64,000 bases of DNA from Octopus vulgaris (lineage: Eukaryota). The translations under genes were made by a program, and so were the position numbers. The notes beneath the pieces were generated by a model, which did not search any database, was not told the DNA's origin, and saw only the letters and a program-made list of their open reading frames with translations. The stretch is from NCBI GenBank assembly GCA_951406725.2, contig OX597823.1:47926001-47990000 (forward strand). Direction: 5' to 3'. The stretch's first letter is position 1, and each line of letters starts with the position of its first letter. This document shows positions 860 through 1,543 of the stretch, one piece after another.

Positions 860-1157
860 CAATTGCAGCATGGAAGGTGTTTATAAGCCATTTAAAAACA
901 CACAAAAACTGTTAGATTCATTTCAACATTTAAATTTAATTTGCCAAAATATTTTCATCACTTTGAGACCGCAACCTATTCACTGACAAAATTACTTGTC
1001 AGTGAACAGGTCGTGGCCTCAAAGCAAAGAAAATATTTTGGCAAATAAAGTATAAATGTTGTGGTGAATCTAACATGTTTTGTGTGTTTTTAAATGGCTA
1101 ATAAATACCTTCCACGCTACAATTGTTTTTGTTTCAGCACACAATCTCAGATCAGGT

Positions 1158-1160
<3 letters not shown>
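859..1160. mobile_element. Penelope-like fold-back element (inverted arms of ~130 bp)
   Basis: 859-990 is the approximate reverse complement of 996-1126, and the body continues past the right arm. The same family recurs at 9940-10255. A partial inverted copy ahead of the body is typical of Penelope pLTRs. Confidence 0.7.
996..1044 (+). ncRNA. Hammerhead ribozyme-like motif, type I, G3-C8 core variant (stem II decayed)
   Basis: TTGTCA (stem I) GTGAACA G gtcgt-loop-gcaaa GAAA ATATTT TGGCAA (stem I'). Stem III is palindromic (AATATT). A mirror copy lies on the minus strand at 940-990. Confidence 0.55.
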
Positions 1161-1198
<38 letters not shown>

Positions 1199-1206
1199 AT
1201 GGAGGT

Positions 1207-1288
1207 TTAGTTCACTGATGATCTAAATGAATAGGTACACTGGTCAAGTGCTGTAACGGATTATCGGGGGTTCGAAGCTTTGAACTGA
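1207..1288 (+). ncRNA. Hammerhead ribozyme-like motif, type I, canonical CUGAUGA (degenerate)
   Basis: 8-bp stem I TTAGTTCA/TGAACTGA flanks CTGATGA (1215-1221) and GAAGCTT (1274-1280, one A short of GAAAGCTT). Domain II is long and decayed. Confidence 0.55.
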
Positions 1289-1392
1289 GATAGGAGATAG
1301 GAATTCATTTTAAGCTTCCAATTTAGTAGATATATATTTGTGAAATGCCTCTGTGTTTGTTGCCCTCTTTCACAAATAAATAAATATATATG

Positions 1393-1458
<66 letters not shown>

Positions 1459-1495
1459 AAAGAAGGTTTGAAAATGCAATTTTAAAAGGTGTTTA

Positions 1496-1543
1496 TTCAC
1501 TTGACCGGTTTCACTTTTTTAGAAAAAGATTGTCAAAAGTAAA
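1496..1543 (-). ncRNA. Hammerhead ribozyme-like motif, type I, U3-A8 core variant
   Basis: Minus strand reads TTTACTT TTGACAA t CTTTTT cta AAAAAG t GAAA CCGG TC AAGTGAA: 7-bp stem I, 6-bp stem II, palindromic stem III ACCGGT, GUC cleavage triplet. Confidence 0.65.

What the first reader, a model, noticed from the sequence alone, without database searches (positions are those of the whole stretch)
940..1543. Hammerhead cluster showing three Watson-Crick variants of the catalytic 3:8 pair within 600 bp
Seen: four hammerhead-shaped motifs close together. The cores are GUGAACA (G3-C8; 996-1044 +, mirrored at 940-990 -), CUGAUGA (C3-G8; 1207-1288 +) and UUGACAA (U3-A8; 1496-1543 -). Each has its own closing stem I, a GAA(A) box and a short palindromic stem III. 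Known: positions 3 and 8 form a tertiary pair that tolerates compensatory swaps, and Penelope-like elements carry minimal hammerheads with palindromic stem III that are thought to cleave as dimers. Inference: this genome hosts several distinct PLE/retrozyme-like families with non-canonical cores that CUGANGA-only searches would miss. These particular copies are partly decayed.
Basis: partly seen in the sequence, partly recalled or inferred. Interest (0 to 1): 0.78.

Follow-up and report, generated by a model that had tools for sequence, protein, structure and literature searches.

The report
Transposon hammerhead with swapped core pair
Three jumping-gene fragments sit side by side in one TA repeat; one carries a hammerhead RNA motif, present in thousands of copies, whose normally C-G core pair is flipped to G-C, which likely still allows slow self-cutting (untested), while one of the reported motifs is a chance look-alike.

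Summary
Partly confirmed. The stretch holds ends of three Penelope-like retrotransposon (PLE) families inserted into one (TA)n tract of an octopus genome; the clustering reflects a shared target. Motif 1 and its mirror are two arms of one family-F1 insertion. F1 (7,993 exact pattern matches against 6 for the control) is the pLTR of an RT + GIY-YIG element and carries a minimal type I hammerhead with G3-C8 (94 of the first 100 listed). Sister families have the homologous hammerhead with C3-G8 and compensatory stem changes, so the swap is a real natural covariation, though a single event. Both window arms are damaged. Motif 3 (family F3, 796 matches) has U3-A8, a published variant, with an unpaired U-U closing stem II. 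Motif 2 is not a hammerhead: its CUGAUGA occurs in 1 of 29 other copies and its GAA box in 0 of 29. F1 copies were made from uncut RNA; cleavage is untested. I found no natural G3-C8 in the papers I could read, but key papers were not held. The scan noted G3-C8 PLE motifs before in two other genomes.

The parts
827..854 (.). (TA)n target tract at the 3' end of the inverted F1 arm
855..990 (-). F1 PLE pLTR fragment, inverted arm, ending at the family's first (tail-less) 3' end
   Evidence: inverted repeat; mapping; family ends
940..990 (-). F1 minimal hammerhead, damaged: core GUGAAUA (C8 changed to U); G3 at 983
996..1156 (+). F1 PLE pLTR fragment, direct arm, ending inside the ~60-nt tail
996..1044 (+). 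F1 minimal type I hammerhead with G3-C8 core: stem I 996-1001/1039-1044, core 1002-1008, extra G 1009, stem II 1010-1014/1024-1028 (two pairs lost in this copy), GAA 1029-1031, palindrome 1032-1037, predicted cut after 1038
1094..1156 (+). first ~21 codons of the F1 reading frame (inferred from likeness to the start of the intact sister-family ORF)
   Evidence: read
1157..1192 (.). (CA)n(TA)n tract between F1 and F2
1193..1345 (-). 3' end of family F2 (likely PLE; sense on the minus strand), cut off before its own hammerhead-like motif
1207..1288 (+). reported motif 2: not a hammerhead; chance core made by changes private to this copy, on the antisense strand of F2
1345..1382 (+). short inverted F2 piece
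1383..1456 (.). (TA)n tract between F2 and F3
1457..2344 (-). F3 PLE 3' part: CA-rich 3' untranslated region, pLTR, 3' end on (TA)n
1496..1543 (-). F3 hammerhead-like motif with U3-A8 core (1536-1530), U-U at 10.1/11.1 (1529/1513), palindrome ACCGGU, predicted cut after C17 (1503)

Best explanation
The stretch is three Penelope-like retrotransposon ends inserted into one (TA)n tract, and family F1 carries a minimal type I hammerhead whose core 3-8 pair is G-C where its sister families have C-G, a compensatory swap that likely kept a slowly cleaving ribozyme predicted to work as a dimer. Shown: family membership, link of F1 and F3 to RT/GIY-YIG coding sequence, two sharp 3' ends, inverted 5' partners, homology and pair-keeping changes between F1 and its sisters. 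Inferred: RNA starting about 15 nt before the hammerhead is reverse-transcribed from one of two internal start sites into a nick in (TA)n; template switching gives the inverted arm; two RNAs pair through AAUAUU to build stem III and would cut after U17. Since most copies hold the whole motif, the template was uncut RNA, so cutting is slow, conditional or acts on another RNA pool. F3 is an independent U3-A8 motif of doubtful activity; motif 2 is chance; both F1 arms in the window are likely dead.
For: F1 pattern 7,993 matches vs 6 control, G3-C8 in 94 of the first 100 listed; in copies chosen by a downstream 25-mer G3 62 of 65, C8 59 of 65. Long F1 copies carry an ORF with RT (YVDD), CX3CX2C and GIY-YIG about 1 kb upstream (Pfam GIY-YIG E 2.6e-5, above cut-off). 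3' ends at two sites, 37 and 51 of 90; inverted partner 50 of 90; TATATA within 12 nt of the end 54 of 90 vs 8.5% background. Sister family F5, found by protein (53% identical to F1), has the homologous motif with C3-G8 before intact 1311-aa ORFs. A pattern barring G3 gave 2,273 matches (control 5); 18 of 24 non-F1 loci fetched are C3-G8. On 36 distinct rows: 3-8 C-G 17 / G-C 10, 10.4-11.4 A-U 18 / G-C 13, 15.2-16.2 A-U 14 / G-U 13 / G-C 5; 85.9% of cells paired vs 27-56% for slid controls. The nine F1 columns with a minor letter of 20% or more avoid the core. An undamaged F1 copy folds into the junction, z -3.1. The C3G/G8C double mutant partly rescues a PLE hammerhead in vitro (PMC11167929).
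Against: No cleavage data. The swap is one event, so the covariation counts are not independent; only 88 of 500 and 203 of 500 shuffles were needed to match the two measures that count pairs or types, and stem II and GAAA letters of most sister rows were fixed by the search pattern. Only 1 of 90 F1 copies starts at the predicted cut, 48 of 90 start 8-17 nt before stem I. The youngest sister family has fixed C at position 9 (40 of 48 identical), another young family has U6/C6 and F3 has U-U at 10.1/11.1 (98 of first 100), so PLEs here spread with damaged-looking cores; cleavage was dispensable for insertion in vitro. RNAcofold did not return the palindrome-paired dimer as the best fold. The extra nucleotide is G, where the published consensus has H. 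No full-length F1 copy was found.
Confidence: 0.7

Rival explanations
1. F1's motif descends from a hammerhead but no longer cuts; the core drifted after cleavage became dispensable, and G3-C8 is complementary by luck or kept only as a folded protein-binding or promoter element.
For: Copies come from uncut RNA; young families with C9, U6/C6 or U-U cores spread well; the swap needs an unpaired intermediate; hammerhead mutants still insert in vitro.
Against: Between F1 and a C3-G8 sister all nine other core letters stay while stem I, loop II and the palindrome change and still pair; subfamily changes in F1 avoid the core.
Confidence: 0.24
2. All four motifs are chance shapes in AT-rich repeats.
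For: Loose descriptor: 106 hits vs 103 +/- 13 shuffled; weak folding of the window copies; no Rfam hit. True for motif 2.
Against: Strict scan: 113 distinct hits in 1.04 Mb of fetched DNA vs 4.7 in shuffles (most are F1 copies fetched on purpose); F1 is homologous to canonical-core motifs at the same pLTR place; Rfam also misses those canonical-core motifs.
Confidence: 0.03
3. The cluster is a functional unit or retrozyme locus in which neighbouring hammerheads with different 3-8 pairs act together.
For: Three families lie within 600 bp.
Against: Each piece is a separate insertion bounded by (TA)n; the motifs lie on opposite strands, have different palindromes and no tandem units; motif 2 is not a hammerhead; other family copies also have PLE neighbours within 1.5 kb (F3 9 of 29, F1 7 of 60, F2 2 of 29, F5 1 of 30).
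Confidence: 0.03

Closest known systems
Minimal type I hammerheads (min-HHR) in pLTRs of metazoan Penelope-like elements (Cervera and de la Pena 2014, PMC4209133; main text parts 1-2 and supplement file 2 parts 1-2 read)
   Same: Place in the pLTR, extra nucleotide between 9 and 10.1, G10.1-C11.1, 5-bp stem II, palindromic 15.1-16.1 region, mostly single or inverted truncated copies.
   Different: G3-C8 core (none of the alignment rows read in their Fig. S3 starts with G; no cephalopod row); extra nucleotide G instead of H; longer stem I (7 bp) and 6-nt palindrome.
Natural U3-A8 hammerheads: Schistosoma mansoni Cercyon PLEs (PMC4209133) and examples in Perreault et al. 2011 (PMC3088659, passages)
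   Same: F3 has the same U3-A8 pair; F1 shows the same kind of pair-keeping change.
   Different: F3 closes stem II with U-U, which Perreault's criteria would reject; F1's swap needs two transversions.
Poseidon element PAc of Anolis and its engineered C3G/G8C hammerhead (Frangieh et al. 2024, PMC11167929, parts 1-2 of 4 read)
   Same: Hammerhead near the pLTR-ORF junction, two 3' ends defining a tail inside the ORF start, AT-rich target, uncut RNA as template; the double mutant is the state F1 has naturally.
   Different: F1 has a CX3CX2C linker (Neptune/Nematis type per PMC8557442 passages), a ~60-nt tail, and its start codon lies about 55 nt after the predicted cut, not in stem II.
Non-LTR retrozymes (PMC7229834 passages; bioRxiv 10.64898/2026.07.22.740005 part 1)
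   Same: Type I hammerheads in short high-copy animal repeats related to PLE pLTRs.
   Different: No head-to-tail arrays here; long copies run into protein-coding sequence.

Membership tests
EN+ Penelope-like element (F1) | ORF with reverse transcriptase and C-terminal GIY-YIG endonuclease | tested here: met
   530-aa open frame L280:6279-7868 with YVDD and GIY-YIG about 1 kb upstream of the motif; Pfam GIY-YIG on the L277 copy; homologues
EN+ Penelope-like element (F1) | optional 3' tail, inverted 5'-truncated partner, AT-rich target | tested here: met
   two 3' ends 37 and 51 of 90; inverted partner 50 of 90; TA flank 54 of 90
EN+ Penelope-like element (F1) | tandem pLTR-ORF-pLTR full-length copy | tested here: inconclusive
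   none among the F1 loci fetched (one candidate, L276, was a segmental duplication); seen in sister family F5
EN+ Penelope-like element (F3) | RT and GIY-YIG coding sequence upstream of the motif | tested here: met
   L151 endonuclease end, L313 RT + endonuclease, 80% alike over 1,847 nt; 2 of the loci extended, both with broken frames
EN+ Penelope-like element (F2) | RT and GIY-YIG coding sequence upstream | tested here: inconclusive
   the three longest copies read end within about 800 nt, without ORF; anatomy only
PLE clade Neptune or Nematis | CX2-5CxxC linker before GIY-YIG | tested here: met
   present in F1 and F3 frames; criterion from PMC8557442
PLE clade Neptune or Nematis | placement in an RT phylogeny with reference elements | not testable with these tools
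   no named reference PLE proteins on hand; calling F3 and the L153 family 'Neptune-like' rests on recalled motifs
Type I minimal hammerhead (F1) | U4 G5 A6, A9, G12 A13 A14, A15.1-U16.1, H17 | tested here: met
   28 departures in 765 core cells
Type I minimal hammerhead (F1) | literal C3 and G8 | tested here: not met
   G3 and C8
Type I minimal hammerhead (F1) | Watson-Crick pair between 3 and 8 | tested here: met
   94 of first 100; C-G in sisters
Type I minimal hammerhead (F1) | stems I and II, G10.1-C11.1, extra nucleotide, palindromic stem III | tested here: met
   met by the family, not by the right window arm
Type I minimal hammerhead (F1, F3) | self-cleavage after H17 | not testable with these tools
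   needs an assay; 1 of 90 F1 copies starts at the predicted cut
Type I minimal hammerhead (F3) | core letters with 3-8 pair, stem I, palindrome, NUH | tested here: met
   U3-A8 in 97 of first 100; 7-bp stem I, ACCGGU, GUC
Type I minimal hammerhead (F3) | base pair 10.1-11.1 | tested here: not met
   U at 10.1 in 98 of first 100, A in none; one locus, L307, has A-U
Type I minimal hammerhead (motif 2) | core and GAAA box kept in the family | tested here: not met
   CUGAUGA 1 of 29, GAAGC 0 of 29; no A15.1 in the window copy
Non-LTR retrozyme | head-to-tail tandem units each with a hammerhead, no ORF | tested here: not met
   3 of 60 F1 loci showed a second direct match within 1.5 kb, all split or partial pieces; ORF present upstream

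The most novel reading that the evidence does not exclude
F1 is a natural, active G3-C8 hammerhead, the state so far made by engineering, fixed in thousands of copies and shared by several related organisms; with its C3-G8, C9, U6 and U3-A8 relatives in the same genome it forms a natural series that lets one test directly whether and why Penelope-like elements need ribozyme cleavage.
Probability: 0.45. Interest if true: 0.6.

Novelty: new variant of a known kind. Interest (0 to 1): 0.43.

Why it matters
The 3-8 pair positions the general acid of the hammerhead. Nature is known to use C-G and, rarely, U-A; G-C was made in the laboratory and only partly rescues activity. A high-copy natural G-C lineage beside homologous C-G sisters is evolutionary support for the pair and shows that CUGANGA searches miss whole families (7,993 matches here). 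It also bears on the open question of what PLE hammerheads are for: the core looks selected, yet the inserted copies were made from uncut RNA. The cluster itself, and motif 2, do not matter.

Tried and rejected
Rfam: no match in the window at gathering scores and no hammerhead family among 133 weak matches in five loci, two of which hold canonical-core motifs, so the blank says nothing. RNA evidence: no RNA holder listed. A pile of 5' ends just after the predicted cut, hinted at by 6 of 28 score-ranked copies, did not hold in 90 pattern-chosen copies (1 at the cut, 6 at positions 61-70). A same-strand pair 3.4 kb apart (L276) was a segmental duplication, not a full-length F1. A possible second x3-C8 family (L360) gave only itself. 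No first exon was found for the acceptor-like sequence at F1's 5' limit. The scripted energy of the palindrome-paired dimer could not be evaluated, and RNAcofold gave other dimers. The predicted fold of F2's own minus-strand motif is not hammerhead-shaped and the strict scan missed it. Pfam found no family in two PLE fragments beside F2 copies. No PLE protein match in the window itself. Literature searches for natural G3-C8: searches found only engineered cases. Lunse et al. 2017, Przybilski and Hammann 2007 and three further papers asked for by recalled ids were not held.

Full report
Setting. The window is G000:C10:47926001-47990000 in a 2.8-Gb, microsatellite-rich genome. A protein that NCBI labels Octopus vulgaris matches this genome at 100% over 101 residues, so it is an octopus genome. 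Family names F1-F5 are mine.

Observation. Alone they are weak: a loose descriptor finds 106 such shapes in the window against 103 +/- 13 in 20 shuffles, their folding z-scores are 0.05, -0.44, -1.43 and -0.69, and Rfam has no match. Motif 1 and its mirror are the arms of one 135-nt inverted repeat. Each of the three pieces is a dispersed repeat bounded by (TA)n (40 candidates scored in each, 30 loci fetched).

Motif 2 fails. Among 29 other F2 copies CUGAUGA occurs once, CUGGUGA 18 times, and the GAA box never. The window copy has no A15.1, and its fold puts the core in a stem. F2 does have a canonical-looking motif, on the other strand about 245 nt from its end: the GAAACAGYYGU box in 13 of 29 copies, 6 with CUGAUGA before it. 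The window copy stops short of it. That motif's predicted fold is not clean and F2 was not linked to an ORF.

F1 is a PLE end. A 19-letter pattern with positions 3, 7, 8 and the extra nucleotide left free has 7,993 matches against 6 for the reversed control; 94 of the first 100 listed are G3-C8 and the other six form no Watson-Crick pair. I took the first 90 of 5,916 matches to a downstream 25-mer (all from one chromosome arm, including both arms of some pairs and one duplicate). Their 3' ends fall at two sites about 60 nt apart (37 and 51 of 90), 54 of 90 are followed by TA repeats against 8.5% background, and 50 of 90 have an inverted partner upstream. This is the tail and inversion signature of PLEs (PMC8557442 passages; PMC11167929 parts 1-2). 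A loose end in two other runs led to 497 copies with an upstream extension; long ones run through about 1 kb of CA-rich sequence into a frame with RT, CX3CX2C and GIY-YIG. The tail encodes about 30 codons resembling the start of the sister family's ORF.

The swap. F1's motif has every trait listed for PLE minimal hammerheads (PMC4209133): extra nucleotide after A9, G10.1-C11.1, palindrome at 15.1-16.1. An undamaged copy folds into the junction (z -3.1). Searching with part of a homologous protein found family F5, 53% identical to F1 over 519 residues, young, with intact tandem ORFs. Its pLTR has the homologous motif with C3-G8 but C at position 9. A pattern barring G3 and demanding A9 gave 2,273 matches (control 5); of 30 loci fetched, 6 were F1 mutants and 24 other families, 18 of them C3-G8, 2 U-G, 4 unpaired. 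On an alignment of 37 motifs the 3-8 pair is C-G in 17 and G-C in 10 of 36 distinct rows, and stems I, II and the palindrome also change on both sides; 85.9% of cells pair against 27-56% in slid controls. Limits: one swap event; two of five shuffle measures are not exceeded (88 and 203 of 500); the pattern fixed stem II and GAAA letters for most sister rows, though F5 was found without that bias. Within F1 the nine columns with a minor letter of 20% or more lie in loop II (4), flanks (4) and one stem I place that keeps a G-U pair, none in the core. Direction (C-G to G-C) is inferred from C3-G8 being the rule in other PLE motifs. Four coded runs of other organisms hold the family, with no listed variant of 10% or more at the 3 and 8 columns.

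Against activity. 48 of 90 copies begin 8-17 nt before stem I and one at the predicted cut, so the templates were uncut, as found for the anole element. Young families here carry C9, U6/C6 or U-U. Published minimal PLE hammerheads cut slowly even as dimers (review PMC6765202 section 11 part 2).

F3. 796 matches, U3-A8 in 97 and U10.1 in 98 of the first 100; copies are 97-100% alike; endonuclease and RT sequence lie upstream in two extended loci. No variant of 5% or more is listed at the core or at 10.1/11.1 in four other runs. U3-A8 is published (PMC4209133; PMC3088659 passages); a mispair at 10.1-11.1 would have been rejected by the latter's criteria. I call it hammerhead-derived, of doubtful activity.

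Genome-level claim. A strict scan of the 1.04 Mb fetched by then gave 113 distinct hits against a mean of 4.7 in 3 shuffles; about 80 are F1 copies fetched on purpose. The rest show several C3-G8 families, two U3-A8 loci outside F3, G3-C8 only in F1 and no A3-U8. This is a small, biased sample.

Clustering. All three families end on (TA)n, and other copies often have a PLE neighbour within 1.5 kb (F3 9 of 29, F1 7 of 60, F2 2 of 29, F5 1 of 30). A shared target explains it (inference).

Novelty. Natural G3-C8 did not appear in seven searches nor in the rows read from the 2014 supplement (file 1 and part 3 of file 2 not read, figures only as text); engineered G3-C8 did (passages). Lunse et al. 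2017, which I recall reports some 150,000 variants, and other relevant papers were not held, and their supplements may contain such families. PMC6155905, PMC10085705 and PMC7229834 were seen as passages only. Two earlier notes of this scan describe single G3-C8 PLE motifs in other genomes; they are unchecked and I had reached my reading before seeing them.

Verdict. Interest 0.43.

Noticed in passing
window 14551-14603 +: A genuine canonical C3-G8 minimal hammerhead copy of another family (also at L281, L133), with one stem II mismatch.
   Followed up: partly
L351-L353 (G000 C18, C5, C19); L321-L350: Young PLE family F5 with intact 1,311-residue ORFs in tandem, whose hammerhead has fixed C at position 9 (40 of 48 identical copies), while older relatives (L363, L368) keep A9.
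   Followed up: partly
L153 about 3480-3520; L019, L109, L252: Another young PLE family with cores CUGUUGA, CUGUAGA, CUGUGGA or CUGCUGA, that is A6 replaced, with otherwise perfect stems.
   Followed up: no
L246-L275, just upstream of the F1 motif: F1's sharp 5' limit falls in a stretch that looks both like an intron acceptor (branch-point-like motif, pyrimidines, CAG) and like an initiator; no first exon found.
   Followed up: partly
L259 (minus strand, about 2820) and L007 (minus strand, about 1198): Two U3-A8 minimal hammerheads unrelated to F3, with G10.1-C11.1 and 6-8-nt palindromes.
   Followed up: no
L360:1488-1535 -: A diverged F1 relative with A3 and C8 and a sister-type loop II; an exact pattern found no second copy.
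   Followed up: partly
window 9922-10020 and 10137-10256; 59501-59777: Further F1 3' fragments without the hammerhead, and an F3 untranslated-region fragment.
   Followed up: no
L276 (G000:C2:171240000-171249500): Tandem segmental duplication of about 3.45 kb containing an F1 copy.
   Followed up: partly
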